In this document: positions 1,540 through 64,000 of the stretch, piece after piece
Numbering within the stretch: position 1 is the stretch's first letter
How the letters are laid out: each line of letters starts with the position of its first letter
Source: Squalus acanthias
Taxonomy: Eukaryota
DNA: 64,000 bases
NCBI GenBank assembly: GCA_030390025.1
Contig: CM059432.1
Location: 93,312,001 to 93,376,000 of the forward strand
Reading direction: 5' to 3'
The notes under the pieces: generated by a model
Told to the model about the DNA's origin: nothing
Seen by the model: the letters and a program-made list of their open reading frames with translations, nothing else
Database searches by the model: none
Translations under genes and position numbers: made by a program

Positions 1540-1635
1540 TGATGAAAGGTCATCGACCTGAAACGTTAACTCTGTTTCTCTCTCAACAGATGCTGCCTGA
1601 CCTGCTGAGTATTTCCAGCATTTTCTGTTTTTATT
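1540..1635 (+). mobile_element. Penelope-like (PLE) short terminal fragment, truncated within the hammerhead motif
   Basis: TGATGAAAGGTCATCGACCTGAAACGTTAACTCTGTTTCTCTCTC... same family as 2329, 16738, 55607 and 63133. Confidence 0.7.
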
Positions 1636-1962: not shown

Positions 1963-2328
1963 CTGCAGGAACAAGGCACAACATCCAATTTATTCAAATG
2001 TCAAATACATTTTTTGGCCATCTGCAAAATCTCTCTGAAACACCCGTAGAAGATATACTGTACAGGATAGATTTTTTAAATATCACAGAATGGTAGAGTT
2101 TTTTGCTACGTGATACAATATTGTGGAGAACTTTCATTGTAAACTTCTTCCTGCCATTTGATGTAGAAATAAGAATACACTGAATATATTAATAAAAATA
2201 ACAAAATAAAATGTCAATTTTTCTCCAGTGCACCCTAACATGGACCAAAGCCACTGGTACATCCTGAGGAACCGTTATCAAGCAAAGTTCCGGAATATTC
2301 ATCTATCCTCATATCTCAATTATTCAAT

Positions 2329-2533
2329 AGCAAAATACTGCGGATGCTGGAAAACTGAAATAACAACAGAAAGCGCTGGAAAAACTCAGCAGGCCAGGCA
2401 ACATCTGTGGAGAGAGAAACAGAGTTAACGTTTCAGGTCGAAGACAAAGGGTCTTCGACCTGAAACGTTAACTCTGTTTCTCTCTCCACGGATGTTGCCT
2501 GGCCTGCTGAGTTTTTCCAGCGCTTTCTGTTGT
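2329..2533. mobile_element. Palindromic PLE-derived element with a 17-bp target-site duplication
   Basis: Inverted arms of about 85 bp. Perfect direct repeat TATCTCAATTATTCAAT at 2312-2328 and 2534-2550. Confidence 0.8.
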
Positions 2534-3632: not shown

Positions 3633-3908
3633 GGGTACGGTAGCATAATGGTTATGTTACTGGACTAGTAATCCAGAGACCTGGACTAATAACCCAAAGA
3701 CGTGAGTTCAAATCCCACCATCCAATTAAATAAATCTGGAATAAAAAGCTAGTATCAGTAATGGTGACCATGAAATTGTCGTAAAACCCCATCTGGTTCA
3801 CTAATGTCCTTTAAATCTGCTGCCCTTACCTGGTCTGGCCTATATGTGACTCCAGACCCACAGCAATGTGGTTGACTCTTAACTGCCCTCTGTGGTTCAA
3901 GGGCAATA
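3633..3908 (+). mobile_element. tRNA-derived SINE (family shared with 16282 and 62538)
   Basis: A/B-box-like head (GGTAGCATAATGG...GAGTTCAAATCC) and a body shared with two other copies. Confidence 0.7.
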
Positions 3909-5700: not shown

Positions 5701-5775
5701 TGGTCAGTACGTGGGATTGAACCCGCGACCTTGCCGTTATTAGCACCGCGCTCTAACCATCTGAGCTAACCAGCA
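5701..5775 (-). pseudogene. tRNA-Ile(AAT) pseudogene or tRNA-derived relic
   Basis: Minus strand reads TGCTGGTTAGCTCAGATGGTTAGAGCGCGGTGCTAATAACGGCAAGGTCGCGGGTTCAATCCCACGTACTGACCA, close to vertebrate tRNA-Ile-AAT. Acceptor and anticodon stems carry mismatches and the T stem has an extra A. Confidence 0.8.
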
Positions 5776-11149: not shown

Positions 11150-13709
11150 GGGCTGGATTTTCCCCGAGGAGGCGGGATGGTGTCGGGAGAGCTGGTTGGC
11201 GGGTTCCAGTCCCGCTCCCTTCTGCAGCCGCTCTCTGAAAATGATTTTCCGTAGATTGGCCTTGTTAAGCCCGCCCTGCAGGGTTCCTGGCCAATTAACA
11301 GGAAGCGGGTCTAATGACGTAATTTGATGGACACGTCATCAGCCGGTTTCCTTAAAGTGACCACGGCCACACTGATTTTGACAGTTGTGCTGTCAGTGTT
11401 CTGCAGCATTGAGGTGCTGCAACCACCGACAAGCACGGCACAAAGGTGGACGCTTGCACCCAGGCTCACGCATGACTCCCTCCATATGCTTATCGAGGGA
11501 GTCACAGCACGCAGGGACATTCTCTTCCCTTCCCATGGGCGGAACAGACATCCCCAGGAGATCAACGCAGTCTGGTTGCATTTGCACAGTAGGACATAAG
11601 CAGGGATGTCGTCAGGTGTCCCTGGCTGCAGTGGCGCAAACCTTTCAATGATCTCAGTAGATCACGAAATGTTACTGCAAAGCCACACTCAAACGCACCT
11701 TGCTGTGCCACTCATCACATACCCATCACTCTGCCTTCCCTACCCTACTCCTGCACATCCTTAATCATACCAACTTACCTTGCACCTCCACCCATCCCTA
11801 TCTACATTATCACTTCCCCATCTCACTAGCCACCCCTCACACTCACCATCATCCTACTGCAAGCATACCAACTAACAACACACAAGGGTAGGCACTTGAG
11901 TGGTTTAGCCAATGTTCATGTGAAGTTTCTGGCAATGTATTGTCAAACATTGAAATCTATATTTTCAACACTTCACCTTATTGGACAGATCTGTGCCCAC
12001 CTTGAGAAATGTCTTAGTGAGTTCCAGTGAATGTTGAGACATAACTTCCCCCTCCCACCCCGCTATTGTGATGAGTGTGAAAGGAATGGCTTGGACATTG
12101 TAGGGATGCTTTATGGTGCTGGTGTGGGATTGTGTCAACCTGGCGCATCATGTGGTAGCCAGGGTGTACAACGTCAAGTGAAGCGTCCCGGGCAGCAATG
12201 TTGTCAGGTGCTGATGCCCTGTGTCCTGTGCAGCATCAGGTAATGGCAGAGAAGGTTGGTGATGTTAGGGCTGATCGTGGAAGGATTCAGAGGACCAAGG
12301 TGAAATTTTTTCAAGGGCACCAATGTTACTGGAATAGATGGCAGCTGCAGTTGAGGTGACAGAAGCGATCTGTCAATGATGAGAGAGGTTGTTCCAATGA
12401 GGTGCCACTGGAAAGAAAGTTGGCTCTAAACACTTGCAAGCTACAGAAAGCTCTATGGGGGAAAATTTGGTTGATTAGCGCCTCCCGTTAGCGTCCTAAG
12501 AGGGCGCTAATGGGGTGCAAAGCAACTAGCGCCCAGGCGCAGAGATGTTTGCGCTGCTCGCGAAATTGACCAGACATTTTGCGGCGGCGCTAAACACTAC
12601 TGCCACGATCTCCTGCGCCCACAGATCGTGACCTCAGTTGAGCATGCAACGCCCCGGTAGCGCCCCGGACCGGATATTGAGTGGCGCCCCCTGCCATTCC
12701 GCCTGCCGCTAGCAACGACAAGTAGAGGGGAATGTTTTGCTGTCGGGAAGGGACTGGGGGAGCGCTATTTAAAGGCGGCTGCTTCCTGCCTTTTTTTGTC
12801 GGCGACATTTGTGCACCACGCATTCTGAGAGAGAGAAAGAGACTTCTGGAGAGATTCAATGCTGTGTGAAGGAGTTTTGGGTACTGAGCAGCACTTTGCA
12901 GGTTAATTTTGATTTGACCTTCCTTGCATCGATTTAGAAGAGACTATGGGGGCTGCACTCTGAGCTCTTTCCAGCAGAATTGATGTACAGGTCTCTCCAG
13001 GCCGAGATTCAAGGCTGCAATGAGCAGGGTGTGGCTGGAGAGCAAGATCGACCCTCCCCTTTAAGAACTGGCCGGCGCCAGTCTGTCTGTGTTCCATTGC
13101 TAACTGACATCACATGAGCTTCGCCAGCGCTCTGAGGTAGCACCTCGCTCCTCGGCGTTAGCGCCTTGAGAGGTGTGTAGCGCCTGATTTAGCGCTCAAA
13201 TCACCTCCGGGGCGATAGAGGCCAAGTTTGCAGTCGGAGGCGATAATTAGCGCCAGGCCGATAACTGTGCCCCAAACGGGGCGATACCGAATTTCTCCCC
13301 CTATATGTCTTACAAATGCAGTAACCAACAGTTTCTGAGCTCTGAAACTGAACAGCTGCAACATGGCATCCTTTATACCACTTCTGCAGCTGTCAGGTTA
13401 TCAGATAAATCAAAGCAGACTCAACTCACGCCAGGGTGAGCTGGCGTGTTCCCCGAGCAACGGGTAACCCGTGGGGTAGCACGTAAAATTGCAAGGTAGC
13501 CTCAAAATAGCATTAAATTGGCTGTTAACAACCCATTTAATGATATAAATTGTCTCCCCCGCCGCCTGGTGTCAGGTCAGTTCTGCGTAGACAGACCCGA
13601 CACCTAGGAGACTCGTGTGGAGGCGGGTTTCCTACCCGGTCAATCTTTGCTATTTTGACAGCGGACCCGCCTCCAAACCTGCCCTCTGAGCGCCAGCAAA
13701 ATTCAGTCC
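11150..13709 (+). mobile_element. Deleted PIF/Harbinger element with a Myb/SANT exon-1 relic
   Basis: TIR GGGCTGGATTTT / AAAATTCAGTCC. Relic APRLTHDSLHMLIEGVTARRDILFP...W at about 11455-11670 is homologous to the Myb exons at 21482 and 56602. Confidence 0.75.
12457..13301. mobile_element. Harbinger-like MITE nested in the 11150-13709 element
   Basis: TIR GGGGGAAAATTTGG / CCGAATTTCTCCCCC and 3-bp TSD TAT. Left arm is homologous to 63908-64000. Confidence 0.75.
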
Positions 13710-16565: not shown

Positions 16566-16737
16566 AGAACAAATATAAAAAGTAATGCCTCGAGACTGAA
16601 AATCACTAAGCACAGAAATATAGAAGAAATCTACACAAACTGTGAAGTATAGTTGCTTGTTACTATTAAACTCTCAACCATAATCACCGATGGAACTTTC
16701 TTTACAATTTCCAGAGCAACAACCCATTTGCTGATAC

Positions 16738-16972
16738 AAAAGCAAAATGCTGCGGATGCTGGAAATCTGAAATAAAAACAGAAAACGCTGGAAATCCTCA
16801 GCAGGTCAGGCAGCATCTGTGGAGAGAGAAACAGAGTTAACGTTTCAGGTCGATGACTCTTCGTCAGAACTTCTGGTCTGACGAAGGGTCATCGACCTGA
16901 AACGTTAACTCTGTTTCTCTCTCCACAGATGCTGCCTGACCTGCTGAGTATTTCCAGCATTTTCTGTTTTTA
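16738..16972. mobile_element. Palindromic PLE-derived element with a hammerhead motif on each strand
   Basis: Inverted arms of about 95 bp around a short spacer. CTGACGA...GAAACGTT on plus (16874-16910) and on minus (16835-16871). Confidence 0.8.
16835..16871 (-). ncRNA. Minimal type I hammerhead ribozyme motif (predicted)
   Basis: AGTT CTGACGA A GAGTC ATC GACCT GAA ACGT T AACT. Core and 4-bp stem I intact, one mismatch in stem II. Confidence 0.5.
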
Positions 16973-20732: not shown

Positions 20733-21481
20733 TGCGTGACATTTTCACAATGCTATTATGGGGGGCGGAGAGGGTAACTGTGATGACAACTTGTAACAGG
20801 CTACTAAAAGCAACAAAAGTTTCTAACTTAGTGGTAGGTTTTAAGTAATCTTCTCAGTACTGATTTTAAAGAGCTCAAAAAGGTGCCCCTGCATTCTGTA
20901 GAAGCTGGTTTTAAGAACGCACTGTTGAAATTCTTCGAAAACAGTGCTACTGAAAAGACCAGCAGCAGTCTTGTATTCAACAAACAAATCAGCTGCTGCC
21001 AAGTGGGTGGGTTGTTTACAAGTCAACAATACCAGTACTGTAGAAAATGCACACCTCCTAAATGCTTTATATGCATGATATTATACAAGATTATGTATCA
21101 ATCTTCTACTCAGAGATTAAACTCTTCTGGACAATTCCAGGATCTTTTCTAATTTATTTTATTATTTCTATCTGCAAAACACCTTCCCCAACTGAGAAGA
21201 CAGACACCAAGGGCTGGATTTTGTCATTGGGGGCGGGTCAGGTGGTCGGCAGGTCCCGCCCCCGCCTCCGATGTGAGGCGGGATAATTTGGCGATTTTGC
21301 CCTAATTGGGCACTTGATTTCCAGCGTGTAGGAAGCCCTGGCCCAATGAGTCTTTTGGTCCTGAAGCTCGCCTCTGATGACGTCATCTATGCAGCTGCAT
21401 TTAAGGCCTGCAAGCAGCCTTGGTTCATTTTCTGCCTTACAACTTTTTTGCTGAGACTTCTGAGGGATTAGTGGTGCAAAC

Positions 21482-23439
21482 ATGGCAAGCTCAAGGCCCA
21501 AGTGCGCACCCCGCTTTGATGAGGACTCCCTCCAAGCTCTGGTGGAGGGAGCCTGAGCTCAGAAGGAAGTGTTGTTTCCTTCATCTGGGAGGAAAAAGCC
21601 TCCCCAGCAGACCAAAGCTGTGTGGCTACAAGTGGCACAGGAGGTGAGTGCCATCTCAATGTGCAGCAGAACCTGGCTGCAGTGCAGAAAGAGGTTTCAT
21701 GACCTTCTCCGCACAGGAAAAGTGAGTATTACATCACCATGGCCCTCAATCTGCCCTCCATCGCCTCTCATCACCAGCACTCTTCATTGTCAACCTCCTC
21801 CTCCACATCCCACTTGACCCTTACATCCCTGCACCCTTAACCATTCCCTCTCTCTCTATGTTCACATTCACTTAACTATTCGACTATGTAGCTCTCGCAC
21901 TCCCTATCACTGTTATGCTATGACAGCTTACAACACACAGGGAGGACCCTTGGTCTTGGGACCTCACTCCATCTTTGTGTCCTTCTAAGCATCTATGCTG
22001 TGGATTCTCTACACTCACTCCTTCATTCTCACTCAAACTCCACTTGTGTCCCTCATTGCAGGAAAAGAGAGCCCACAATAAGAGGGAAAGGGCGAAGACA
22101 GGAGGAGGGCCACCCTCAATAGCCCAGCTCACCAACGCAGAGGAGGCGGCCCTCGAGATCGTGGAGTCGAGGAGGATGCGCAAGTGGGGGACGGACAGAC
22201 GGGCGCATCAGAGCAAGCTGGTGACAGAATAGTTTTTCATCTCTCTCATTGACATTGCATGAATGACTGATACTGATTCTGATGCTCTAACAGACTGACT
22301 TATGATCATCTGCACAATTCCATGTGCATGCAACGTTTATCTCACATGTCTAACTCTTTCCTTTACTCCCCCACAGGACCATCGATAGCCCCCATCCCCA
22401 CTGTCCAGGAGGAACAGCCTCAGCCACAAGACGCCTCAGAGGAAGCTGCAACCTCTGAGGGCGCAGCATCACCAGAATTAAGCGCACCCAGCATCAGCGC
22501 AGATACTCACACCTCGGTGGGACCTTCGGGATATAGAGTAGTGTTGTCACCTGGTGTATCACAGCTCACAAGTGAGCATCAGCAGATGGTGGAGACAGGG
22601 ACAGCAGTGGAGAGTCCTCGTCAGAGGACTCAGGGCGCTCCCAACTCGGCTCAGCTGCATGTCGACCCTGTGCCTCAGGGTCCATCCAGAAGGAGAGCGG
22701 TGCTGGAACTCCAGGAACAGGTGCAGGAGTCTCTGGCAGTTTTTGTCTCCAGTGTCACTGCGAGTGTGGAGCGGATGGAGGAGTCCATCGCTAACATGAG
22801 CAGAGCCTTTGTGGAGGCGTTGGCGCATGAACGCATCACCACAGAAAGGATGACAACCTCCGTGGAAAGGATGGCTGCAGTAGAGGAGAGGATGGCTACC
22901 GCCATGGAGGAGCTAAGTCGCCAGAGTGTTGAAAACATGGTCATTGTTCAGAATAGACTGACATCTCTGGAGGAACGATGGACAGCTATTGAGCAGAGAA
23001 ACCAGAGCTTCATGGAAGTCCTCTGGAGTAGGACTGCCAGTGCAGAAACAGGTCCTCATGGCCCCCCTGAAGTGCAGCAAGGTGCTGTCAAGCCACTTGC
23101 TAGCTCTAAATTGGGGCTGACCCATGAGAGGGATGTTGGTGGCAGACAACAAGTGGGGGCTCCTCTCCAAGCGCTCACACTTCCATGCCACTGCAGAGCC
23201 CTCGGTCAGAGCCCCACCAGAGTCCTCACCCAACTGAGATGGGCGTCTCATCCCCTGCACAGCCACAGGAGCAGCAGACTATTGGCGAGCCCTCACAGGT
23301 TCGCAACCCCAGAGCATGCCCGCCAAAGGTGTCGAGGCAGGAGCAGCATGAAAGTGAGCAAGGGGCCTCCACATCTGCTGAAGCCACAGGGGAAGCACCA
23401 CGTAGGAGCACGCGTAAGAGGAAGATAAAGCACAAGTAG
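21482..23439 (+). pseudogene. Harbinger Myb/SANT-like DNA-binding protein, 3 exons (21482-21721, 22062-22220, 22377-23439)
   Basis: APRF...W...RTWLQCRKRFHDL then spliced EKRAHNKRERAKTGGGPP. GT-AG junctions. Heptad xERMxxx coiled coil and basic C-terminus RRSTRKRKIKHK. In-frame TGA at 21554 and frameshifts. Confidence 0.85.
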
Positions 23440-23697
23440 TCACAAGAGTAGTCACTTTGGTGTTCTGTTGTGTTTAATTGTGAAATGCCATCCGTGAATT
23501 AATGTTATAAATTGACTTGATGGCAAACTGTTGAAGTTGTGGGCTGTGTCATTTCGCAAATGGGACTTCCACATTGAGGGCTCAGGGCGACTTGGAATTG
23601 TCAGTATGGTGGTCAGAGTGATAGGAAGCCGCAGGTTCTTGTCCATTGTCGATGGTGTGGTAAGAAGGTGCGAGCCAAATGTGTTTGATTGGGCAGC

Positions 23698-25359
23698 CTA
23701 AGCAAATCTGGCCAAGATCAGTGCATCCCTTGCATCCCAGGCAGCAACGTTCTCATGTGCTGCTGCCGCTGGTTGATGCGCCTCCGCAAGCTGTTCGTTG
23801 TCGCTCTCCTCCTCCTCCTCCTCGGAGGCTATGCAATGAGCCACTTGTACCTCAGGCAGCTGTAAGCCACGATGCTGTGCCATGTTGTGAAGTGCACAGC
23901 AGACCACGACGATTCTGGAGACCCTGGCTGCTGAGTACTGCAGGGCTCCACCTGATCTATCAAGGCATCTGAATTGCATCTTCAGCAAGCCGATGGCTCG
24001 ATAATGGATCTGGTGGAAATGTGGCTGGAGTTGAAGCGCTCCTCATCTTCGTTGTATGGCCTCCTCAACGGCGTCATTAGCCACGTCTTCAGGGGATAGT
24101 CCTTGTCTGCAAGTAGCCATCCGCATAGTTGGTCTGGCGGACTGAAGAGCGGAGGCACACTAGACTGTCACAGGATGAAGGAGTCATGGCAACTGCCAGG
24201 GTACTTGGTGCAAACATACAAAATTTCCTATTGTGGTTACACACCAGCTGCACGTTGAGGGAGTGGAAACCCTTGCAGTTGACAAAAACACCTGGATTGT
24301 GATGGGGTGCCTTAAGGGCCACGTGTGCAGTCTACGATGCCCTGCACCCTTGGAAAGCCTGCCAGATTAGCAAATCCAACCGCTCACGTGGTTACATTTG
24401 CTTGACCCTTGGAGAAGTTGATGTAATTGTGCGCGTTGGCAAAGAGGGCATCGATTACCTGCGTGATGCAAGTGTGTGTGGCCGCCTGGCAGATGCCGTT
24501 GGGGCAACACGGTGGCATAGTGGTTAGCACTGGTGCCTCACAGCGCCAGAGACCCGGGTTCGAATCTGACCTCGGGTGACTGTCTGTGTGGAGTTTGCAC
24601 ATTCTCCCCGTGTCTGCGTGGGTTTCCTCCGGGTGCTCCGGTTTCCTCCCACAGTCCAAAAATGTGTGGGTTAGGTTGATTTGGCTATGATAAATTGACC
24701 CTTAGTGTTAGGGGGGATTAAATATGTGGGGTTATGGGGATAGGATGGGATATGTTAGGGGGAATTAAATACGTGGGGTTACGGGGGTAGGGTGGGATTT
24801 GTGTACTGTGGGGATTAAAGCAGGGACAGGGTACTGGATTTGGATGATCAGCCATGATCGTATTGAATGGCGGAGCAGGCTCGACGGGCCGAATGGCCTA
24901 CTCCTGCTCCTAGAATCTATGTTTCTATGTTTCTATATCTGCTGTTGATCCCTGGAATGAGCCTCAAGCAAAAAAGTTGAGTGCGGTGGTGACTTTGACG
25001 GCCACTGGTAAGGGGTGTCCACCCGCTCCTCTGGGCTCCAGGTCTTGCTGCAGCATTGCGCAGATGTCACCCACTACCTCTCGCGAAAGTCTGCGCCTCC
25101 TTTGGCACTGCTGCTCAGTCATGTTGAGGTAGCTCATCCTCTGTCTGTAAACCTTGTTTTGGAGGTATCGCCTGCGGCGACGTCCTTCCCTGCATTGGCG
25201 CCTTTTGGCCTGTGCAGCTTCAGGTGGGTGAGCAGCAGGTTGGCGCCCCTGTTGTTGCTCCTGCTGGTGGTGCTGCTGTTGTTCCGGGTTCTGCTGCTGC
25301 CGCGGCTGGTCTTCGTCCGAATCTGAGGTCCAGGAGAAAAGGAAATAAATGGTTCCCAT
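23698..25359 (-). pseudogene. HARBI1-like DDE transposase, disrupted by a stop, frameshifts and a SINE
   Basis: Motifs [55 protein letters not shown] and VCCALHN. Confidence 0.92.
24501..24935 (+). mobile_element. HE1-like V-domain SINE inserted in the transposase
   Basis: tRNA-like head, V-domain GTGTGGAGTTTGCACATTCTCCCCGTGTCTGCGTGGGTTTCCTCCGGGTGCTCCGG, and a 3' tail matching the CR1 3' ends at 55917 and 60447. Confidence 0.9.
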
Positions 25360-27747: not shown

Positions 27748-27774
27748 AGCCTATTCACACATGCAGTTACACAC

Positions 27775-28035
27775 CTTCTCTCTGCATTTCAGCTGCACTT
27801 TGTTGCCGTGGTTGTGGAAGCCGGGTCCCACCACCACGATCTCCTCCTCGGGGTATTCCCTCAGGGTCCCATCCTCCAGCATCACCGTGTAGAGGTTGCA
27901 TCGCCCCCCGGACTCCTTGTTCTCCGATTTGAGCGCCTGGATCACCCCGGGGATGAGCTGCCCATCCCCGGCCGGACTCGGAGCGCAAACCCGGCTTCCC
28001 AAAATCGATCTCTTTGCAGAACGGCGAGCTTGCAT
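27775..28035 (-). CDS. ZNF704: Zinc finger protein 704, first coding exon (MQARRSAKRSILGSRVCA...QLKCREK)
   Basis: ATG at 28035. N-terminus resembles mouse Zfp704 MQARRLAKR and ZNF395 RRLGKRSLLGARV (recalled). 87 codons then donor AAG|GTGTGT, phase 0, matching the phase 0 acceptor at 1962. CpG-rich context. Confidence 0.85.
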
Positions 28036-28102
28036 CGCGAGCTTTCCCCCCCGCCCCCCTTCGCTTGCTTTTATTGTAAGAAATTAAATGCAAAAGATGC
28101 AA
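28036..28102 (-). other. ZNF704: Putative 5' UTR part of the first coding exon, opened by a splice acceptor
   Basis: On the minus strand a T-rich tract then ttattttgcag|TTG (AG at 28104-28103), 67 nt upstream of the ATG. Confidence 0.5.
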
Positions 28103-40450: not shown

Positions 40451-42420
40451 TGTGGTAGGGCATCGGGGGAGGAGTCAGGGTGGGTGCACAAGGAGTCAGG
40501 GCAAGTAAAGGCAGGAAACTATGTCATCAGGGAGGTTGTGATGTGCTTCCCCAATCCTAGACATGTCCCACTTGTGGCGGGGGGGCGGGGGGGGAAGCAG
40601 AAAGCTGTGATTTCCACCCCGTTATGTCAATATCTTCCTTGCAGTCGGGGGGAGGGGGGTGTGGAGTAGTGAGGGGCTACATGTTCCCTTCCCAACTGCT
40701 CCCAAAATTTGTTTCCTCGAAGGGAGGAGAAAAATCAAAATCTAGCTTTCCTCCTGCCTTGGTGACGGAGCTGGGTTTGTGGGGGGGGTGGGTGGGGGTG
40801 CAGAATTGAGGCCCACAAATGCCTCTCAATGGGATTGTGCTTAGGATCACTTTCCCTTCCACTCTGTTCCCGAAATGCCCCTCACTGGTGGAGGGGGCCA
40901 AATTCTTTCCCATCCATGCCCCGAAATTATTCTTAATTGTTGGGGGGGGGGGGGTGGGGGCGGTGGTGGTTTGTCAAGTCGAACACTACTCCTGAGTAGA
41001 GAGGAGTGTCAAGGTGCTCATTGCTGCTTTGTGGGGAAGAGGAGTTGACAGAAATGCTGCTCATTGTGGGGAGGTAAAAGAAAGTGAAAGTAGTATAGGA
41101 GAGAACTGTACAGTGAGGGAGAAGTAACATTTATAGTATTGTCTTACGATAGCATATCCAGTGTTCGGCTGGCTTCACCAAAGGCATACCATGCTGGCGG
41201 CACTGAGGGTGTAGCAGTACTTATGTGCGAGACGTGCACTTAAGGCAAGGAAGGCCTAGAGAGCTACAATATCATGAAAAGTGCTTCATCTTCGGCTTTG
41301 TGCATGGGGCGGAGGACCAGGTGTCACGGGTGCAGTGTGTCGCTTAACCAGTGGGAGGAGGGGGTGGCACGATGGTAAGGGACAACCCTCTCCTAGCGAT
41401 GCAAAGGAAATAGTTGAACACATTTGTTTTAGCAATAAGGTAAGTTTAGATTTCACATGGAGATTTTCTTACCTTTTACTTAGCACAGATTCTCCAGCAA
41501 GATAGGAAGACCTCAGTTCATGCCACAATCCATCCAGCAATTGCAGGTAGGCTTAAGGCAGTGCTTTTTGCCATTAGACAATATATACTGCAACTATATA
41601 AATCAAGTATAAAGAGTTAGGCTGTCACATAACATTTGCTAAATAGCAATGCCCTTCCTATCACAGCACCATCAGCAAGTGTAACTGCCACTGCATCTTA
41701 ACATTGACATATGATTTTCCCATTGACAAAGCCTTACATAGGAATTTTCAATGCATTTTGAAATGGAATGTTATGAACTACTGATCGATTTTAATATATA
41801 ATAGATGTAGGCAAAGGAATATATATATAAATAAAATAAAGACCATTCGTTTACAAGTTGTGGAAATCAATTCCCAAAGCACCAGTAAAGTAAAATCCCA
41901 GAACATTATTGAATGAAAATGGAATTTAACTTATTCAGTCACTGTGGCCCTCATGCTTTGCCCTACAGGACATAAACAGCCCTTTAGTTATAAAAAGGCA
42001 ATTCCTCTGACTTACTGTGAGCAATGCCATAAGAGATCAACCTGTTTAACAAAAGTGGTGAATATAGTGTGCATTTCCTGTACATCCAACACATTTCTTG
42101 TGTTACACTTTCAAGTCACCTTATAGACAATTTTCTTGCAGCTGATTGGCTCAAATTAAATTTTCATAAAATAGCAAAAAAAATACAAGCAGGACTGAAA
42201 TTCCAATTTTACCAATAAAAGTAACAATTATAATGCAACAAATCCATAAAAAATTAGACAATTCAAAATAAAATTATTAGTGTTACTTATAGAATTTCCT
42301 GTACAGTGTTCTATATCTCTGCAAGACATTTTCTTCATGAGTCCTCCTCTTCACTTGGTAACCAAGGCTCAAACGACAGTTGCTTTCCTTCTACACCGGC
42401 CCAACTGTATCCCAACAAAG

Positions 42421-43603
42421 CCCTACTCCTTCCTCACAATACAGTACCTTCCCACTTGGCCCAACTCCTTCCTCACAATACAGTGCCTTCCTGCTTGGCC
42501 CAACTCCTTCCTCACAATACAGTGCCTTCCCACTTGGCCCAACTCCTTCCTCACAATACAGTACCTTCCCACTTGGCCCAACTCCTTCCTCACAATACAG
42601 TGCCTTCCCACTTGGCCCAACTCCTTCCTCACAATACAGTACCTTCCCACTTGGCCCAACTCCTTCCTCACAATACAGTGCCTTCCTGCTTGGCCCAACT
42701 CCTTCCTCACAATACAGTGCCTTCCCACTTGGCCCAACTCCTTCCTCACAATACAGTACCTTCCCACTTGGCCCAACTCCTTCCTCACAATACAGTGCCT
42801 TCCTGCTTGGCCCAACTCCTTCCTCACAATACAGTGCCTTCCTGCTTGGCCCAACTCCTTCCTCACAATACAGTGCCTTCCCACTTGGCCCAACTCCTTC
42901 CTCACAATACAGTACCTTCCCACTTGGCCCAACTCCTTCCTCACAATACAGTGCCTTCCTGCTTGGCCCAACTCCTTCCTCACAATACAGTACCTTCCCA
43001 CTTGGCCCAACTCCTTCCTCACAATACAGTGCCTTCCCACTTGGCCCAACTCCTTCCTCACAATACAGTGCCTTCCTGCTTGGCCCAACTCCTTCCTCAC
43101 AATACAGTGCCTTCCCACTTGGCCCAACTCCTTCCTCACAATACAGTGCCTTCCCACTTGGCCCAACTCCTTCCTCACAATACAGTGCCTTCCCACTTGG
43201 CCCAACTCCTTCCTCACAATACAGTGCCTTCCTACTTGGCCCAACTCCTTCCTCACAATACAGTGCCTTCCTGCTTGGCCCAACTCCTTCCTCACAATAC
43301 AGTGCCTTCCTACTTGGCCCAACTCCTTCCTCACAATACAGTGCCTTCCCGCTTGGCCCAACTCCTTCCTCACAATACAGTGCCTTCCCACTTGGCCCAA
43401 CTCCTTCCTCACAATACAGTGCCTTCCCGCTTGGCCCAACTCCTTCCTCACAATACAGTGCCTTCCCGCTTGGCCCAACTCCTTCCTCACAATACAGTGC
43501 CTTCCTGCTTGGCCCAACTCCTTCCTCACAATACAGTGCCTTCCCGCTTGGCCCAACTCCTTCCTCACAATACAGTGCCTTCCCACTTGGCCCAACTCCT
43601 TCT
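42421..43603. repeat. 39-bp minisatellite, 30 units (CCCAACTCCTTCCTCACAATACAGTRCCTTCYRCTTGG-type)
   Basis: 13-aa periodic ORFs in five frames. 30 repeats counted from the translation. Confidence 0.97.
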
Positions 43604-44165
43604 TCACCATCCAACGTCTTTCTTGCAGCCACAACTCCACCCCTACCCCCTACTTTGCCACCCAGCACATTTTCCGCCACCCAACTTTCTTCCTGCCCAG
43701 GCACATGTCCTTTTTAGCCTTGGATCCTTTCCCATAGCAAGATTATCCTAACTTGGAAAAAAAAGTCTTATGCTTTAATTACAGTAATCGTTTCTTTAAA
43801 ATCTTTCAATCAACTCATAATGACAGGGATCCCAAGTTTGAGTTTTTTCTAGTTAACATTATGTTTGGAAGTGAATTTTTCTCCTGCCTTGTTGCAATTT
43901 TCAACATACTGTTCAGATTATTTTTCTCAATATCTTTGGCCAATGCAAGAACAATTTCCTATTCTCTGAAAGAGATTAGTTAACTTTGTTGAAATCACAT
44001 GCTGTATAAGATGGCATGTATATAGGATGTGCTAGTTGTGAAATACAATTAAACAATACTACTGCACTGGCGTACTCACTCAGCAATGCATGAATTATAC
44101 ATACAATGTGCATCTGCAACATATTAGTATAAAGAAGAAACATAATAATTTAACATTTATGAGTA

Positions 44166-50406: not shown

Positions 50407-50536
50407 GGGGTAGATCTTGACCTTGTGCGATAGTGTAAAACAGGTGATAGCAGCCAGCAGCCGAGAGAGATGTAAAACGGGCTGCTGACTTACCATCACC
50501 CGTTTTACACTATCGTGTAAAGTCAAAATCTGCCCC
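50407..50536. mobile_element. Short palindromic MITE
   Basis: Arms GGGGTAGATCTTGACCTT..GATAGTGTAAAAC and GTTTTACACTATCG..AAGTCAAAATCTGCCCC form an imperfect hairpin. Related fragment near 38110-38180. Confidence 0.7.
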
Positions 50537-52675: not shown

Positions 52676-53175
52676 AGCCCCCAACACCAACATTACTGGA
52701 GCCCCCAACACCAACATTACTGGAGCCCCCAACACAAACATTACTGGAGCCCCCAACACAAACATTACTGGAGCCCCCAACACAAACATTACTGGAGCCC
52801 CCAACACCAACATTACTGGAGCCCCCAACACCAACATTACTGGAGCCCCCAACACCAACATTACTGGAGCCCCCAACACCAACATTACTGGAGCCCCCAA
52901 CACCAACATTACTGGAGCCCCCAACACCAACATTACTGGAGCCCCCAACACAAACATTACTGGAGCCCCCAACACCAACATTACTGGAGCCCCCAACACC
53001 AACATTACTGGAGCCCCCAACACCAACATTACTGGAGCCCCCAACACCAACATTACTGGAGCCCCCAACACCAACATTACTGGAGCCCCCAACACCAACA
53101 TTACTGGAGCCCCCAACACCAACATTACTGGAGCCCCCAACACAAACATTACTGGAGCCCCCAACACAAACATTA
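52676..53175. repeat. 24-bp minisatellite, left block, about 21 units (CCCCCAACACMAACATTACTGGAG)
   Basis: 8-aa periodic ORFs. Confidence 0.97.
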
Positions 53176-54459: not shown

Positions 54460-54929
54460 ACTGGAGCCTCCAACACACACATTACTGGAGCCCCCAACAC
54501 ACACATTACTGGAGCCCCCAACACATACATTACTGGAGCCCCCAACACAAACATTACTGGAGCCCCCAACACAAACATTACTGGAGCCCCCAACACAAAC
54601 ATTACTGGAGCCCCCAACACCAACATTACTGGAGCCCCCAACACCAACATTACTGGAGCCCCCAACACCAACATTACTGGAGCCCCCAACACATACATTA
54701 CTGGAGCCCCCAACACCAACATTACTGGAGCCCCCAACACCAACATTACTGGAGCCCCCAACACCAACATTACTGGAGCCCCCAACACCAACATTACTGG
54801 AGCCCCCAACACATACATTACTGGAGCCCCCAACACAAACATTACTGGAGCCCCCAACACAAACATTACTGGAGCCCCCAACACAAACATTACTGGAGCC
54901 CTCAGCCCCCAACACAAACATTACTGGAG
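54460..54929. repeat. 24-bp minisatellite, right block, about 19 units
   Basis: Same unit as 52676-53175. Confidence 0.97.
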
Positions 54930-55192: not shown

Positions 55193-55850
55193 ATAAGAAC
55201 AGGAGTAGGCCATTCAGTCCCTTGAGCCTGTTCCGCCATTCAATTAGATTATGGCTGATCTGTGTCTTAACTCCATCTACTCACTTTGGTTTCTTAACTC
55301 TTAATAGCCTTGCCTAACAAAAATCTATCAATCTCAGTTTTGAAATTTTCAATTAACCTAGCCTCAGCAGCTTTTTGGGGAAGAAAGTTCCAGATTTCCA
55401 CTACCCTTTACACAAAGAAGCGCTCTCTGACATCACCCTTGAACGGCCTAGCTCTAATTTTAAGGTTATGCCCTCTTGCTCTGGACTCCCCCGCCAGAGG
55501 AAATAAGTTTCTCTCCATCTACCCTATCAACTCCTTTGATCATCTTAAACACCTCAATTAAATCACCTCTTAATCTTCTATATTCAAGGGAATACAATCC
55601 TAGTCTTCTGACGAAAGGTGATCGACGTGAAACGTCAACTCTGTTTCTCTCTCCACAGATGTTGCTTGACCAGCTGAGTATTTCCAGCATTCTGTGTTTT
55701 TTTTTCAGATTTCCAGCATCCACAGTATTTTGCTTTTGTACAAGCCTAGTCTATGCAACCGGTCTTCATAATTTAACCCTTTTAGCCCTGTTATCATTCT
55801 GGTGAATTTCATTGCACTCCCTCCAAGGCCAACATATCCTTCCTGAGGTG
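55193..55850 (-). mobile_element. CR1 3' fragment interrupted by a PLE-derived element
   Basis: RLGLYSLEYRRLRGDLIEVFK peptide and CR1 3' UTR. Confidence 0.85.
55607..55738 (+). mobile_element. PLE-derived monomer with a 14-bp TSD, starting at the hammerhead core
   Basis: TACAATCCTAGTCT (55593-55606) / TACAAGCCTAGTCT (55739-55752). Insert begins TCTGACGAAAGGTGATCGACGTGAAACGTCAACT. Confidence 0.8.
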
Positions 55851-56070: not shown

Positions 56071-56601
56071 GGGCTTTAAAGTTCTTCAGCTCTTAAATTG
56101 GGGTGTTCAGGGTTGTGGAGTTCTTAGCAGATATGATGGGTGTTCAGGAATGTTCAATTTTTCCTTCAGCTAGAATGATTGAGTGGTCAGGGCTGTAGAT
56201 TCCCACCTTGGCTGCCTTCAAACGTATCTGTGACTCTCACTACTGCAGTCAGGACAGGTCCCGAAAGTTTTTCTCTGCTGCTATGTAATCCTTCATATAA
56301 AACTCACACAAGAGCCGGAACTTTTACCTGCCGATGCGCTGGCAGAGGGGTAGCCCTGAATCAGCGGGGGAGCCCTGGATCGTGTGGGGAACACGGAAGT
56401 TTCAGCGGCGCGTTTGTCAATGGCTTTTTAACGAAGCCACTGCATTTGCATCTGACTTCCGAGTTTCCCGACCAATTAACGCGAGTGGGCGTGATGACAT
56501 CACGCACGGGTCCAATTCAGCGGAGGTATTTAAAGGAACACTGCAAAGATGACACTTGACAGTTTGTGGAGGTTGGAGAAACATTGCTTGGAGAGAAAGA
56601 A

Positions 56602-58632
56602 ATGCAGTCGCAGCGTACAAAAGCTGCCCCTCACTTCAGTGATGCCTCCCTGGACCTCCTGCTGCAAGGTGTTGGGGCCCGCAGGGAGGCGATATTCCCT
56701 GCTGACGGGAGGAAAAAGTCAGCCTCAGAGACCAAGAAGGCATGGCGGGAGATTGCGGCGGAGGTGAGCAGCAGGAATGTGGTAACACGGTCCTGGATAC
56801 AGTACAGGAAGAGAATTAATGACCGCATGAGGTCAGGAAAGGTGAGTACAATGCTACATTCAACTACATCCTGATGTGTGTGTCACCCCAACCCCCTCAC
56901 TCCACCTTCCCAAACCTACTCAAGCTACTTGGAAAATAAAGAATCCAAATGGGGTAGAAGAGCAAAGGGATCTGGGAGTACAAATACACAAATCACTAAA
57001 AGTTGCGGCACAGGTTAACAAGGCCATAAAAAAGCAAACCAAGCACTAGGGTTTATTTCTAGAGGTATAAAATTGAAAAGTAAAGAATTTGTGCTAAACT
57101 TGTATTGAATCTTGGTTAGGCCACACTTGGAGTACTGTGTACAGTTCTGGTCGCCATATTATAAAAAGGATATAGAGGCACTGGAGAGGGTGCAAAAAAG
57201 ATTTACAAGGATGATACCAGAAATGTGAGGTATAACTATCAGGAAAGGATGAACTGTCTGGGTCTCTTTTCTCCTGAAAAGAGAAGGCTGAGGGTTGACC
57301 TAATAGAGGTCTTTAAAATTATGAAAGGTTTTGATAAAGTAGACAGAGAGGGAGTGTTTTCACTTGTGGGGAAGAGCAAAACTAAAGGCCATCAATATAA
57401 GATAGTCACCAAGAAATCAAATAGGGAATTCAGAAGAAACGATTTTACACAGAGAGTGGTGGGAATGTGGAACTCACTTCCACAGGGAGTGGTAGAAGCG
57501 AATAGTATAGATGCATTTACGGGAAGGATAGATAAACATATGAGGGGGAAGGGAATAGAGGGTTATGCTGATAGAGTTAGATGAGGAAAGAAGGGAGGAG
57601 GCTCGAGTGGAGCATAAACGCCAGCATGGACAGGTTGGGCTGAATGGCCTGTTTCTGTGCTGTATATCCTATGTAATTTATGTACTTCTGCACATCACTC
57701 CTCACACCAACGTACCTTTCAAGTGCACCCATCCCTCTCTGTCTATGCACTTCCTTACATTCCCATCTGATGATCCACCACTGGCACTCACCCTCATCTT
57801 AATGCAATGCCTCTCGCTCATAGTCACCCTCTACAGATGTTGCCCATCCCTGCGTTCCACTCATTCCATGACTCTCATTCAAAGGTCTCTTGTTTCCCTC
57901 CTTGCAGGAGAAGAGGACACAGAACAGCTGGGAGAGGCAGAGAACAGGAGGTGGCCCTCCAGTCATCGCCACGCTGACTGCTGCAGAGGAGGCGGCACTG
58001 GAGCTAACTGGAGTATCGGCGTTGATGGCGGTGCGAGATGGAGAAAGGGGAGCTCCCAGCTACCTGGTGACAGAATTAAATAGCACATATTGTCGTCGTC
58101 GGAGGGTTCAGGACACTTCAAGCTCTGCTCAGCTAGACGCAGATACTGAACCTCAGGGGCCGTCAACAAAAAGGATGATTCTGGAGGAGCAGCAGAAAAT
58201 GGGCGAGGCTCTGGCAGGATTTCCAGCCGCAATAAAAACCTAGATTTGGCCGTTCATCGCCCCACTGATGTGCAGCAAAGCGCTCTCCAGCTCATTGCTA
58301 GCAGGGAAGTACGGGTGGTACATGGGAGGGATGATGGCGAAAGGGGACTCTGCTCAAAGCGCTTCCACTTCTCACCCATTCCACCCGCCCCCACCGTCCC
58401 AGTCAGTGCCCCACATGCTGACTCCTGTCCCAATGGCCAAATCTGCCCCTGCACAGGTGCCGGTAGAGTAGTCTTTGGCGGGGCCCTCACGAGCTCCAAA
58501 ACCCAGAGGACGTCGGCCAAAAGCACCTGAGCAGTCAGAGCAGCGAGTGAGCAGCCGGCTTCCACCTCTGCTGAAGCCACGGAGGTTGCACGACGTAGAA
58601 GTGGTAGGAAGAGGAAGAGGAAAGAATTCTAG
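56602..58632 (+). pseudogene. Harbinger Myb/SANT-like protein (exon 1 56602-56841, exon 2 57908-58066, partly deleted exon 3)
   Basis: APHFSDASLDLL...AWREIA...RSWIQYRKRINDR|EKRTQNSWERQRTGGGPP. Exon 1 is 240 nt as in copy 1. Basic C-terminus RRSGRKRKRKEF. Confidence 0.85.
56928..57685 (+). mobile_element. CR1 3' fragment in the Myb intron
   Basis: ORF 57225-57584 (DLIEVFKIMKG, FTQRVVGMWNSLP). Confidence 0.9.
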
Positions 58633-58940
58633 GTGCACAAGGGTATGCTCATGGGTGTGTTAGGCAATGTTTCACTGTGAAGGTTATTTTTAAATTTTGA
58701 GGCACATAAAATTATTTCTTTGCACCACTTTCCCGTCTTGCCCATTTTTGCCTGCTGTCTGGCAAGCGGCCTTCTCACCTGTAATGAATGGTAAGACATG
58801 ACTTAACTGCAAGCAATGGGTGTCTGTGAAAGGAATGGTTTGGTCATTGTATGACTGCTTTGTGGTTGGGGGGATGGGGGGGGAGGCGGGAAAGTGGGTG
58901 CAGCATCTGGGTGCCTGATGGGTGCACTGGTGCAAGCTAA

Positions 58941-60089
58941 CTAAATCATGCCATTATGAGGCCATCCCAGGCAGCAATGTGCCACGTCCACATCAAGTTC
59001 CTCCTCCTCCTCTGAAGAGGCTGTGCACTCTGCGCCTAGCTCCACCTGCAGCTCCAATCCTCGCTGCTGCACTATGTTGTGCAGAGCGCAACATACCATG
59101 ATGATTCTGGAGACCCTGGCTAGTGCGTATTGAAGGGCTCCTCCAGATCTGTCCGGGCATCTGAAGCTCATCTTCAGCATCCCGATTGCTTGCTCTGTTA
59201 CACATCTCGTCGTCATTTGGCTTTGATTGTAGTGCTCTTCGGCCTCATTGCTTGAGCTCCTCAAGGGTGTCATCAGCCACATCTTCAGTGGATACTCCTT
59301 GTCTCCAAGCAGCCAACCAGTAAATCTGGTTGGAGGTGCAAAGAGCTGAGGGAGGGTGGACTGGTGCAGGAGGAATGAATCATGGCAGCTCCCTGAGAAT
59401 CTGGCACACACCTGAATGATGATCTTTTTGTGATTGCAGACGAGCTGCACATTGATGGAGTAGTAGTGCCTATGGTTTACAAACACTCCTGGGTGATCTG
59501 GGGGTGCCTTGATCGCCACATGTGTGCAGTCGATGATGCCTTGCACCTGTGGGAAGCCAGCCAGAGCCGCAAACCCAAGCGCCCGCTCATTCTGACTGGC
59601 TTCATCGGTGGTAAAGTGTACATAATCGCCTGCTCTAGCAAACATGGCATCGGTCACCTGGGTGATGCATTTGTGGGCGGCCGACTGCAAAATCCTGCAA
59701 ATATCTCCTGCAGATCCCTGGAAGCAGCCTGATGCGAATAAGTTGAGGGCGGTGGTCACTGACAGCCACTGGTAACGCGTGTCCACCAGGTCCACTTGGC
59801 AGCAGGTCTTCTTCCAGCAGGCTACAAATGTCTGCCACGACCTAACGCGATACCTGAGCCTCCTGAGGCACTGCTGTTCAGTCATGTCCAGGAAGCTGAT
59901 CCTCTGCCTATATACCCTGTACTGGGGGTATCGCCTCCAGCAAGTTGCACTCCTGTGCTCATCAACTCTCTCCTGTGGAGCAGCAGGTCGGTGAGGAGAA
60001 GGCTGCTGCTGCTCCTACTGGTGTTGATGCTGGTGCTCATCTTGGTCCTCATCTGAGGTCCAAGGTGAAACAGCATAAGTGGCACCCAT
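58941..60089 (-). pseudogene. HARBI1-like DDE transposase with an N-terminal stop and frameshifts
   Basis: ATG at 60089 (MGATYAVSPWTSDED). Open catalytic region with GIIDCTH, GSCHDS, LLGDKEYP, TEQAIGMLK and CCALHN. Confidence 0.93.
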
Positions 60090-62970: not shown

Positions 62971-63132
62971 TCCCCATAGGCACAACCATACTCATCTCTT
63001 CATAATAGCTTTATTACATTAAGGAATGTTATACCACAATGCAGTATAACAGATGGGGTTGTATAAACAACTGGGAAATATAATATTTACACAATCCACC
63101 TTTTCTTCACATTTAACAAGGAGTATGGCGAT

Positions 63133-63384
63133 AGCAAAACAAATACGTTGTGAAATAAAAACAGAAAATGTTGGAAATACTCAGCAGGTCAGACAGCATC
63201 TGTAGAGAGAGAAACAGAGTTAACGTTTCAGGTCGATGACCTTTCGTCAGAACTGGAAAAAGCTGGAGATGTAACAGTTTTTTAAGCAAGTGTAGGGGCA
63301 GGGAAAGGGGGGAGGGGAGGAAAGAACAAAAGGGAAGGTCTGTGATAGGATGGAAGGCAGGAGAGATTAAGAGACAAAAGGGAT
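63133..63384 (-). mobile_element. PLE 3'-terminal fragment, longer than the other copies
   Basis: Shares the terminal unit and extends about 130 bp beyond the hammerhead motif. Confidence 0.75.
63218..63254 (-). ncRNA. Minimal type I hammerhead ribozyme motif (best copy, predicted)
   Basis: AGTT CTGACGA A AGGTC ATC GACCT GAA ACGT T AACT. Perfect 4-bp stem I, perfect 5-bp stem II, conserved CUGANGA and GAAA boxes, palindromic ACGU in place of stem III. Confidence 0.65.
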
Positions 63385-63720
63385 ATAGGCATCAACGATA
63401 TAGGTAAAAAACGGGATGAGGTCCTAAAAGCAGAATATAGGGAGTTAGGAGGTAAATTAAAAAAGAGGACCTCAAAGGTAGTAATCTCAGGATTGCTACC
63501 AGTGCCACGTGCTAGTCAGAGTAGAAATAGGAGGATATTTCAAATGAATACGTGGCTAGAGGAATGGTGCAAGGGGGAGGGATTCAAATTCCTTGGACAT
63601 TGGAACTGGTTCTGGGGGAGGTGGGACCAGTACAAACGGGACGGTCTGCACCTGGGCAGGGCCGGGACCGATGTCCTAGGGGGAGTGTTTGCTAGTGCTG
63701 TTGGGGAGGGTTTAAACTAA
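63385..63720 (+). pseudogene. CR1 ORF1 fragment, SGNH/GDSL esterase domain
   Basis: In-frame IGINDIG...VVISGLLPVP...RDGLHL...GEGLN*, with GxND and DxxH motifs typical of CR1 ORF1 esterases. Confidence 0.85.
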
Positions 63721-63907
63721 AGTGGCAGGGGGTTGGGAACCTGAGCAGGGAGACAGAGGAAAGGGAAATAAGGATAAAAGCTAAAGACAGGAAGGAGAAA
63801 AACAAAAGTAGAAGGCAAAGAACTCAACGGTTTAAATCAAACATGGTCACAGTAAATAATAATTCATATAGGTCTGAGAGCGTTAAAAAAACAAGCCTGA
63901 AGGCTTT

Positions 63908-64000
63908 GGGGTAAAAATTCACTTGGTTGCGCCACCCGTTAGCGCCTTAAGAGGGCGCTAATGGGGCGCAAAGCCGCTAACGCCCGGGCGCAGCGATGTT
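63908..64000. mobile_element. Left end of a Harbinger-like MITE (family of 12457), running off the window
   Basis: CCCGTTAGCGCCTTAAGAGGGCGCTAATGGGGCGCAAAGC aligns with about 12485-12550. Confidence 0.8.

What the first reader, a model, noticed from the sequence alone, without database searches (positions are those of the whole stretch)
63218..63254. Minimal hammerhead ribozyme in a shark Penelope-derived repeat family
Seen: the minus strand reads AGUU-CUGACGA-A-AGGUC-AUC-GACCU-GAA-ACGU-U-AACU. That gives both catalytic boxes, a perfect stem I, a perfect stem II and a palindromic ACGU where stem III should be. Related motifs occur in four other inserts (1540, 2329, 16738, 55607). Established: Penelope-like elements carry minimal type I hammerheads with a palindromic rudimentary helix III thought to work as dimers. 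Inference: here helix III has no loop at all, so cleavage would require a dimer paired through ACGU. Five inserts in 64 kb suggest a very large genome-wide family.
Basis: partly seen in the sequence, partly recalled or inferred. Interest (0 to 1): 0.72.

Follow-up and report, generated by a model that had tools for sequence, protein, structure and literature searches.

The report
Penelope-type minimal hammerhead in shark repeat
The 37-base motif is real, but it is the stripped-down self-cutting RNA motif already described in the ends of Penelope-like jumping genes, here in a lone, truncated copy in a shark genome, so the catch is correct and ordinary.

Summary
The motif at 63254-63218 (minus strand) is as described and beats chance (1 full match; none in 30 shuffles). 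It has a 4-bp stem I, both core boxes, a 5-bp stem II and ACGU with no loop. The missing loop is not a twist: it defines the 'min-HHR' of Penelope-like elements (PLEs) in PMC4209133, where 15 of 56 listed motifs share this GAAA-C-G-U-U end. The window holds 7 copies at 5 sites; only this one is intact. They show PLE hallmarks: an optional ~33-nt tail, head-to-head pairs with the tail at one end, and 13-17-bp target duplications. No PLE reading frame could be tied to the family, and no compensatory covariation was seen in 7 copies. The family is very large in three related organisms. A ZNF704 exon supports a shark. One useful detail: short copies start at the ribozyme's 5' edge, not at the cut site, which suggests uncleaved RNA templates. 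The scan has already reported this kind of motif on other shark DNA (29 notes). Verdict: new member of a known kind.

The parts
63218..63254 (-). Minimal type I hammerhead motif. Stem I 63254-63251 with 63221-63218; core CUGACGA 63250-63244; extra nucleotide 63243; stem II 63242-63238 with 63234-63230; GAAA 63229-63226; C-G-U-U 63225-63222; predicted cut between 63222 and 63221.
   Evidence: Sequence, descriptor scan with shuffles, compared by eye with the consensus in Fig. S3 of PMC4209133.
63151..63384 (-). 5'-truncated copy of the terminal repeat (pseudo-LTR-like region) that carries the motif; about 130 nt upstream and 67 nt downstream of it.
   Evidence: Family contigs cover this span. 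Loose ends behind 63384 share one consensus in three runs (agreement 0.66-0.78), so the family continues upstream and this copy is cut there.
63133..63150 (-). Possible decayed remnant of the optional tail; weak.
   Evidence: Local alignment score 18 against 68-72 for true tails; depth over 1000-fold below the adjoining bin.
63253..63266 (-). Pyrimidine run ending in CAG that overlaps the first bases of stem I: candidate 3' splice acceptor or initiator-like start. Many short copies begin at its 3' edge.
   Evidence: Sequence; loose ends with unrelated flanks at 63253 in runs X1 (192 contigs) and X8 (288). Splicing or initiation not shown.
63385..63669 (+). GDSL-esterase-like fragment abutting the copy's 5' end; a different repeat (LINE ORF1 of CR1/L2 type is my recalled label).
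   Evidence: Pfam Lipase_GDSL_2, E=7.5e-09, residues 13-107 of the frame 63349-63717; high repeat depth.
1540..1635 (+). Short copy without tail; starts at U4 of the core.
   Evidence: no target duplication found.
2329..2533 (.). Head-to-head pair: tailed copy on minus, tail-less copy on plus; both hammerheads cut.
   Evidence: folds as one long hairpin, -173 kcal/mol.
2312..2328 (.). Left copy of a perfect 17-bp target-site duplication (right copy 2534-2550).
   Evidence: best score in 400 control sites outside tandem arrays was 9 against 17 here.
16737..16972 (.). Head-to-head pair: tailed copy on minus (starts 16869-16871), tail-less copy on plus (starts 16877).
   Evidence: hairpin -177 kcal/mol; no target duplication found.
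55606..55738 (+). Short tailed copy starting 2 nt before C3, stem II broken; 13-14-bp target duplication with one mismatch (55593-55605/6 and 55739-55751/2).
27754..28083 (-). Context: reading frame holding the first coding exon of ZNF704 (Met at residue 17), about 35 kb downstream of the motif on the same strand.

Best explanation
The motif is the min-HHR in the terminal repeat of an endonuclease-bearing Penelope-like retrotransposon family that amplified hugely in sharks. The window holds only dead, truncated end-pieces. In the parent element (inferred, not seen) the repeat flanks an RT + GIY-YIG frame. The element's protein nicks AT-rich DNA and starts reverse transcription at one of two sites about 33 nt apart, which gives tailed and tail-less 3' ends. 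Priming on both strands gives the head-to-head pairs. The hammerhead cannot close helix III alone; it would cut after GUU only when two motifs pair through ACGU or when the element's protein folds it, and slowly. The short copies cross the cut site and stop at the 5' edge of the motif, so their templates were most likely uncleaved RNAs whose 5' end (start site or exon boundary) lies there, or on which the RT stalls there. Shown: motif, family, tail, inversions, duplications, end positions. Inferred: parent ORF, cleavage, template history. This copy most likely has no function.
For: Motif fits the published min-HHR consensus. Tail of 30-34 nt in 3 of 7 copies, absent in 3, doubtful in 1. In three DNA runs, loose ends at 63151 give the tail consensus and those at 63153-63154 give unrelated flanks with an A-rich consensus. 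[quoted passage not shown] Two RT start sites, both-strand priming, AT-rich targets, protein-assisted cleavage and use of uncleaved RNA were shown for the anole PLE (PMC11167929 main text parts 1-2). Of the 40 variant rows shown, the 4 inside the motif fall at 3 tolerated positions: N7 (21-27% C to U), loop II (8-17%) and 10.1 A to G (25-45%, keeps pairing with U). 5' ends: by alignment 5 of 6 short copies start at positions 63248-63254 and 1 at 63240; 0 of 7 start at the cut site.
Against: No RT or GIY-YIG of PLE type tied to the family: 150 of 186 non-tandem frames >=75 aa scanned gave only LINE-type RVT_1, DDE, Myb, GDSL and ZNF704 hits above Pfam's cut-offs ('LINE-type' is my reading). Protein searches gave no annotated PLE. 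No two-sided covariation in 7 copies; stem II is 85.7% paired with 2 of 5 pairs broken in some copies. Variation inside the motif (4 of 23 columns) is not clearly lower than downstream (18 of 64). One search hid 94 variant rows, so core invariance is not established. G10.1-C11.1 is absent. Target duplications found for only 2 of 5 inserts. The monomer's best fold buries the core (-9.1 against -5.9 kcal/mol for stems I+II), and two monomers co-fold into a non-catalytic duplex.
Confidence: 0.85

Rival explanations
1. The ~100-135-nt copies are a self-propagating, SINE-like mini-element with its own master copies. It begins at the hammerhead and borrows PLE proteins, instead of being a by-product of full-length PLE RNAs.
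For: 6 of 7 copies are short and start at or inside the motif. Loose ends with unrelated flanks pile at 63253 in 2 of 3 DNA runs' displayed rows. Summed contig depth peaks over the motif and is 2-7 times the upstream maximum (the tool warns depth is not copy number). Non-autonomous PLE derivatives are described (bioRxiv 10.64898/2026.07.22.740005, parts 1-3).
Against: 5' ends scatter over 63240-63254 and 5 of the 6 short copies lack stem I or part of the core, so they would pass on a broken ribozyme. Short copies are as alike to the long copy (75-84 of 87 nt) as to each other (71-85 of 87), with no diagnostic set seen. Run-off from the 5' pseudo-LTR of full-length RNA explains the same ends.
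Confidence: 0.12
2. Non-LTR retrozyme: tandem units with hammerheads that are cut to monomers, circularised and reinserted.
For: Retrozymes were reported in the one chondrichthyan sampled, mean consensus 363 bp. A circular template would also let copies cross the cut site.
Against: No head-to-tail tandem of this unit in the window; the pairs are inverted. Classical animal retrozymes carry canonical type I motifs in tandem repeats (PMC7229834 passages). One 'goes back' joint appears among 15 shown of 164.
Confidence: 0.05
3. The motif is a catalytically dead relic or a protein-binding or splicing signal: the shape is kept for the element's RNP assembly, not for cutting.
For: Published min-HHRs cut poorly even as dimers, and the authors leave other functions open. 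Catalytic mutants did not impair insertion in vitro and no RNA reads ended at the cut site in anole. Folding favours inactive forms and ACGU pairing is worth only about -1.7 kcal/mol. GUU is a weaker triplet than GUC (recalled).
Against: The displayed family variants spare every catalytic base, including G8 of a CpG whose partner C7 varies in 21-27% (partial table). The anole motif does cut, depends on C3-G8 and is partly rescued by the double mutant.
Confidence: 0.2
4. The copy has been co-opted to cut or regulate ZNF704 transcripts, like intronic hammerheads of amniotes.
For: It is the only intact copy of 7, and lies on the ZNF704 strand about 35 kb upstream of the first coding exon.
Against: No helix III, no nearby same-strand partner, and private changes just downstream (63171, 63193, 63204 differ from 82-98% of family depth) as in a decaying copy. 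In its 252-nt context stem I pairing probability is under 0.01. Whether it is inside the transcript is unknown.
Confidence: 0.03

Closest known systems
Minimal hammerheads (min-HHR) in pseudo-LTRs of metazoan Penelope-like elements (Cervera and de la Pena 2014, PMC4209133; main text parts 1-2 of 4 and supplement parts 1-2 of 3 read)
   Same: Type I layout, no loop 3, palindromic 15.2-16.2, extra nucleotide after A9, short helix I, mostly single dispersed copies, opposite-strand pairs 100-700 bp apart. 15 of 56 rows of Fig. S3 end in GAAA-C-G-U-U (my count).
   Different: No chondrichthyan among the 56 rows. Closing pair is A-U or G-U, not G-C (A-U occurs in 3 of 56 rows by my count). Helix II is 5 bp with a 3-nt loop. 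Density in this window (about 1 insert per 13 kb) is far above the published counts of about 4,000 (coelacanth) and 9,000 (Xenopus) per genome, but only 1 of 7 copies here is intact.
PAc, Poseidon-type PLE of Anolis carolinensis (Frangieh et al. 2024, PMC11167929; main text parts 1-2 of 4, supplement 1 read)
   Same: Hammerhead a short way upstream of an optional 30-40-bp tail; two 3' ends; AT-rich targets; templates apparently uncleaved.
   Different: PAc is intact and tested. Here no ORF is in hand and the clade is not established.
Penelope of Drosophila virilis (Schostak et al. 2008, PMC2377424, passages; PMC4209133)
   Same: An AG acceptor lies just 5' of the core (intron ends at 491, C3 at 496); here a CAG ends 2 nt before C3. 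A 34-bp terminal repeat is close in size to the tail here.
   Different: The Drosophila motif has a looped helix III and a 2-bp helix I, and its intron is proven. Splicing here is only a sequence resemblance.
Non-LTR retrozymes of animals (PMC7229834, passages; bioRxiv 10.64898/2026.07.22.740005, parts 1-3 of 5)
   Same: Non-coding, hammerhead-bearing, linked to PLE ends, reported in one chondrichthyan.
   Different: Retrozymes are head-to-tail tandems; these copies are single or inverted.

Membership tests
min-HHR (PMC4209133) | Core boxes CUGANGA and GAAA, then N-N-U-H | tested here: met
min-HHR (PMC4209133) | No helix III loop; palindromic 15.2-16.2 | tested here: met
   ACGU, loop length 0; definition.
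min-HHR (PMC4209133) | Helix I and helix II closing a type I motif; extra nucleotide between 9 and 10.1 | tested here: met
   4 bp and 5 bp; extra A at 63243; stem II pairing probability >=0.98 in the 37-mer.
min-HHR (PMC4209133) | G10.1-C11.1 pair (a frequent trait, not in the descriptor) | tested here: not met
   A-U here, G-U in 25-45% of family depth; both types occur in the published alignment, so this does not exclude membership.
min-HHR (PMC4209133) | Compensatory changes within the family | tested here: inconclusive
   0 two-sided changes in 7 close copies; one-sided A-U/G-U only; one search shows 40 of 134 rows and no phase.
min-HHR (PMC4209133) | Self-cleavage as dimer or with protein | not testable with these tools
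   Needs bench assay; folding alone favours inactive forms.
Penelope-like element (EN+) | RT + GIY-YIG ORF linked to the repeat | tested here: inconclusive
   None in the window; no assembly held. One unnamed Logan frame (P0005) has, upstream of the repeat-derived peptide, a stretch that by eye resembles Neptune-type endonuclease ends in Fig. S2 of PMC8557442; no tool scored it.
Penelope-like element (EN+) | Optional 30-40-bp tail | tested here: met
   30-34 nt in 3 of 7 copies; tail consensus in loose ends of all 4 runs; feature stated.
Penelope-like element (EN+) | 5' truncation with inverted adjacent copy, tail at one end | tested here: met
   2 of 5 inserts; opposite-strand joints in the family.
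Penelope-like element (EN+) | Partial tandem forming two pseudo-LTRs around the ORF | not testable with these tools
   Needs full-length copies; none in window, no genome.
Penelope-like element (EN+) | Intron in the pseudo-LTR ending near helix I (some PLEs) | tested here: inconclusive
   Acceptor-like CAG at 63255-63253; no GT-AG skip among 15 of 164 joints shown.
Non-LTR retrozyme | Head-to-tail tandem units each with a hammerhead | tested here: not met
   within this window only.
Rfam hammerhead families | Match to a curated covariance model | tested here: not met
   No hammerhead among 18 matches at E<=10.

The most novel reading that the evidence does not exclude
Shark genomes carry, at 10^5 scale, a ~100-135-nt mini-element that begins at the first base of the hammerhead's helix I and has its own master copies. 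Its ends would be an in vivo record that PLE reverse transcription starts at the 5'-proximal tail and runs off an uncleaved RNA, so the ribozyme would act as an off-switch or RNP checkpoint, not as the maker of the template.
Probability: 0.15. Interest if true: 0.55.

Novelty: new member of a known kind. Interest (0 to 1): 0.25.

Why it matters
As it stands it extends a motif class described in 2014 to a shark family; I found no paper on shark PLE hammerheads in the held library, which lacks most subscription journals and repeat databases. The role of PLE hammerheads in vivo is still open. A family this large gives thousands of insertion ends and variants from which selection on the core and the cleaved or uncleaved state of templates could be read directly. 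This single copy adds little.

Tried and rejected
Own-genome search: no assembly held. Motif patterns in metagenome, viral and prokaryote (33) contigs: 0 matches each. Plasmid blastn: none. Motif text in papers: 0; in the PMC8557442 supplement: 0. Rfam: only hairpin-shaped chance matches below gathering scores. Idea that the open frame across the copy (92 aa) is a PLE protein start: no longer homologue; 3 weak unnamed singletons, no Pfam; treated as a spurious frame in pyrimidine-rich DNA. Tracing P0005 to a PLE: no hit. Expression: no RNA holder listed as RNA (22); one guessed-RNA run holds 3,111 family contigs but nothing on the unique flank, so nothing can be said on this locus. The flank 62980-63131 had no depth in any of 4 runs, so presence or absence of the insert could not be tested. 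Target duplications not found for 3 of 5 inserts; the first control included tandem arrays (10 of 300 scored >=19) and was redone without them (0 of 400 above 9). Other hammerhead families in the window: none with stem I >=3 bp, also with one core mismatch. The bacterial promoter scan (74) does not apply to a eukaryote. PMC5785218 (dimer cleavage of PLE hammerheads) is not held; I saw only its title in a reference list. Figures, a GenBank supplement of PMC11167929 and the bioRxiv supplements were not seen and may list shark families. An early note called the branch-point-like variant upstream of the motif a family majority; it is frequent only (22-56% and 43-71% at the two positions).

Full report
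Observation. The minus strand 63254-63218 carries the motif exactly as written: stem I 4 bp, CUGACGA, one extra A, stem II 5 bp with loop AUC, GAAA, C-G-U-U. A descriptor scan of both strands found it as the only full match; 30 shuffles gave none. Without the stem I requirement 4 sites matched against a shuffle mean of 0.2; two of the 4 belong to this family. Rfam has no model that picks it up.

Family in the window. BLAST and alignment show 7 copies at 5 sites, 71-85 of 87 nt identical over the shared part. Two inserts are head-to-head pairs (2329-2533 and about 16737-16972), each with a tailed copy on the minus strand and a tail-less copy on the plus strand; if transcribed they fold into hairpins of -173 and -177 kcal/mol that leave no room for a hammerhead. 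The tail is 30-34 nt and is present in 3 copies, absent in 3 and doubtful in the 63250 copy. Target duplications of 17 bp (perfect) and 13-14 bp (one mismatch) flank 2 of 5 inserts, above a control maximum score of 9 in 400 sites. Only the 63250 copy keeps both stems and the whole core. It extends upstream to 63384, where it abuts a GDSL-esterase-like repeat fragment on the other strand.

Family elsewhere. No assembly is held. Of 24 runs listed I laid 4 on 62980-63520. They gave 42,820, 79,000 and 63,410 contigs in DNA or unlabelled runs of three organisms and 3,111 in a guessed-RNA run; these counts include the adjoining esterase repeat and are not copy numbers. Loose ends (24 of 1,715 rows shown) mark two 3' ends, at 63153-63154 with unrelated flanks and at 63151 continuing into the tail; a 5' pile-up at 63253 with unrelated flanks in two runs; and a shared upstream continuation at 63384. 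Of 40 variant rows shown (94 hidden), 4 lie in the motif, at N7, loop II and 10.1, all tolerated. This fits selection on the core in master copies but is partial. In the 7 window copies there is no two-sided covariation and no clear excess conservation (4 of 23 against 18 of 64 variable columns). Five inserts in 64 kb would extrapolate to roughly 25-180 per Mb (Poisson range, my arithmetic, one window).

Host. A frame at 27754-28083 holds the first coding exon of ZNF704, 92-93% identical to sawshark, basking shark and horn shark proteins, 87-90% to two other sharks and two rays, and 58% to elephant shark. An elasmobranch, most likely a shark, is supported.

What is known. PMC4209133 (main text parts 1-2 of 4; supplement parts 1-2 of 3) defined the min-HHR by reasoning that no helix III loop is needed if two motifs pair, found it in PLE terminal repeats and widely as single copies, and measured no monomer and low dimer cleavage. 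In its Fig. S3, 15 of 56 motifs end in GAAA-C-G-U-U and none is from a cartilaginous fish (my count). PMC8557442 (passages; supplement searches and one part) lists the tail and inverted truncated copies as PLE features. PMC11167929 (parts 1-2 of 4) showed two internal RT start sites that explain the tail, priming on both strands, AT-rich targets, protein-assisted hammerhead cleavage, and insertion from uncleaved RNA. PMC2377424 (passages) places the Penelope start site and intron in the pseudo-LTR, with the intron ending just before the hammerhead core. A 2026 preprint (parts 1-3 of 5) reports retrozymes in one chondrichthyan and derives them from PLE ends. PMC6155905, PMC7229834 and PMC6765202 were seen as passages only.

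How it most likely works. Parent element (inferred): terminal repeat, ORF, terminal repeat. Its protein primes cDNA at the tail or about 33 nt inside it. Most products are short. By alignment 5 of the 6 short copies start within 63248-63254 and one at 63240; none of 7 starts at the cut site 63221. Templates were therefore uncut, or cut and religated. The clustering at the first bases of helix I coincides with a CAG that reads both as a splice acceptor and as an initiator-like element (consensus recalled); I cannot tell these from an RT stall. My preferred reading is run-off from the 5' repeat of full-length RNA (about even odds). Cleavage: C15.2 and G16.2 are adjacent, so helix III cannot close in one molecule; pairing through ACGU is worth about -1.7 kcal/mol, the monomer prefers a fold that buries the core (-9.1 against -5.9), and two monomers co-fold non-catalytically. 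Slow, dimer- or protein-dependent cutting is the expectation. The 63250 copy has no same-strand partner within 46 kb downstream; only 750 bases upstream are visible.

The gap. I could not tie the family to an RT/GIY-YIG frame. 150 of 186 non-tandem frames of 75 aa or more gave none. A spurious read-through peptide found three unnamed contig frames; one, P0005, has upstream of the repeat-derived part a stretch that by eye resembles Neptune-type endonuclease ends in a published alignment, but four searches did not score it. It is a lead only. Other notes of this scan report intact PLEs with min-HHRs in the same genome; I could not check whether they are this family.

Verdict. Observation confirmed; interpretation right in kind, wrong in implying novelty, unproven on ORF link, covariation and activity. 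The scan has 29 earlier notes matching these words, 8 of which I saw. New member of a known kind; interest 0.25.

Noticed in passing
window 63200-63225 (-) and about 63151-63170 (-): Two further acceptor-like stretches lie downstream of the cut site; the first has a branch-point-like word overlapping stem I, a pyrimidine run and (in the other six copies) CAG, followed in five of them directly by ATG. Splicing not tested.
   Followed up: no
window 16870-16876: Seven bases ending in AAG join the two inverted copies; they could be untemplated or the end of a short upstream exon. Single case.
   Followed up: no
window 21200-25300 and 56500-60050: Two decayed elements with Myb/SANT and DDE_Tnp_4 frames (Harbinger-type is my recalled label).
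   Followed up: partly
window 42420-43607; 52676-53175; 54460-54901; 9076-10015: Minisatellites of 39, 24, 24 and 33 bp; the two 24-bp arrays share a unit and lie 1.3 kb apart.
   Followed up: no
window 50407-50536: Imperfect 130-bp palindrome (74%), MITE-like, no hammerhead core.
   Followed up: partly
window 3640-3719, 5701-5775: Weak tRNA-like matches below the gathering score, probably SINE heads.
   Followed up: no
window 55593-55752: The 55606 copy sits inside an older LINE-like repeat that resumes after the target duplication.
   Followed up: partly
window 63904-64000 and 12453-12549: Shared 97-bp repeat end (83%) that interrupts the esterase-bearing fragment.
   Followed up: no
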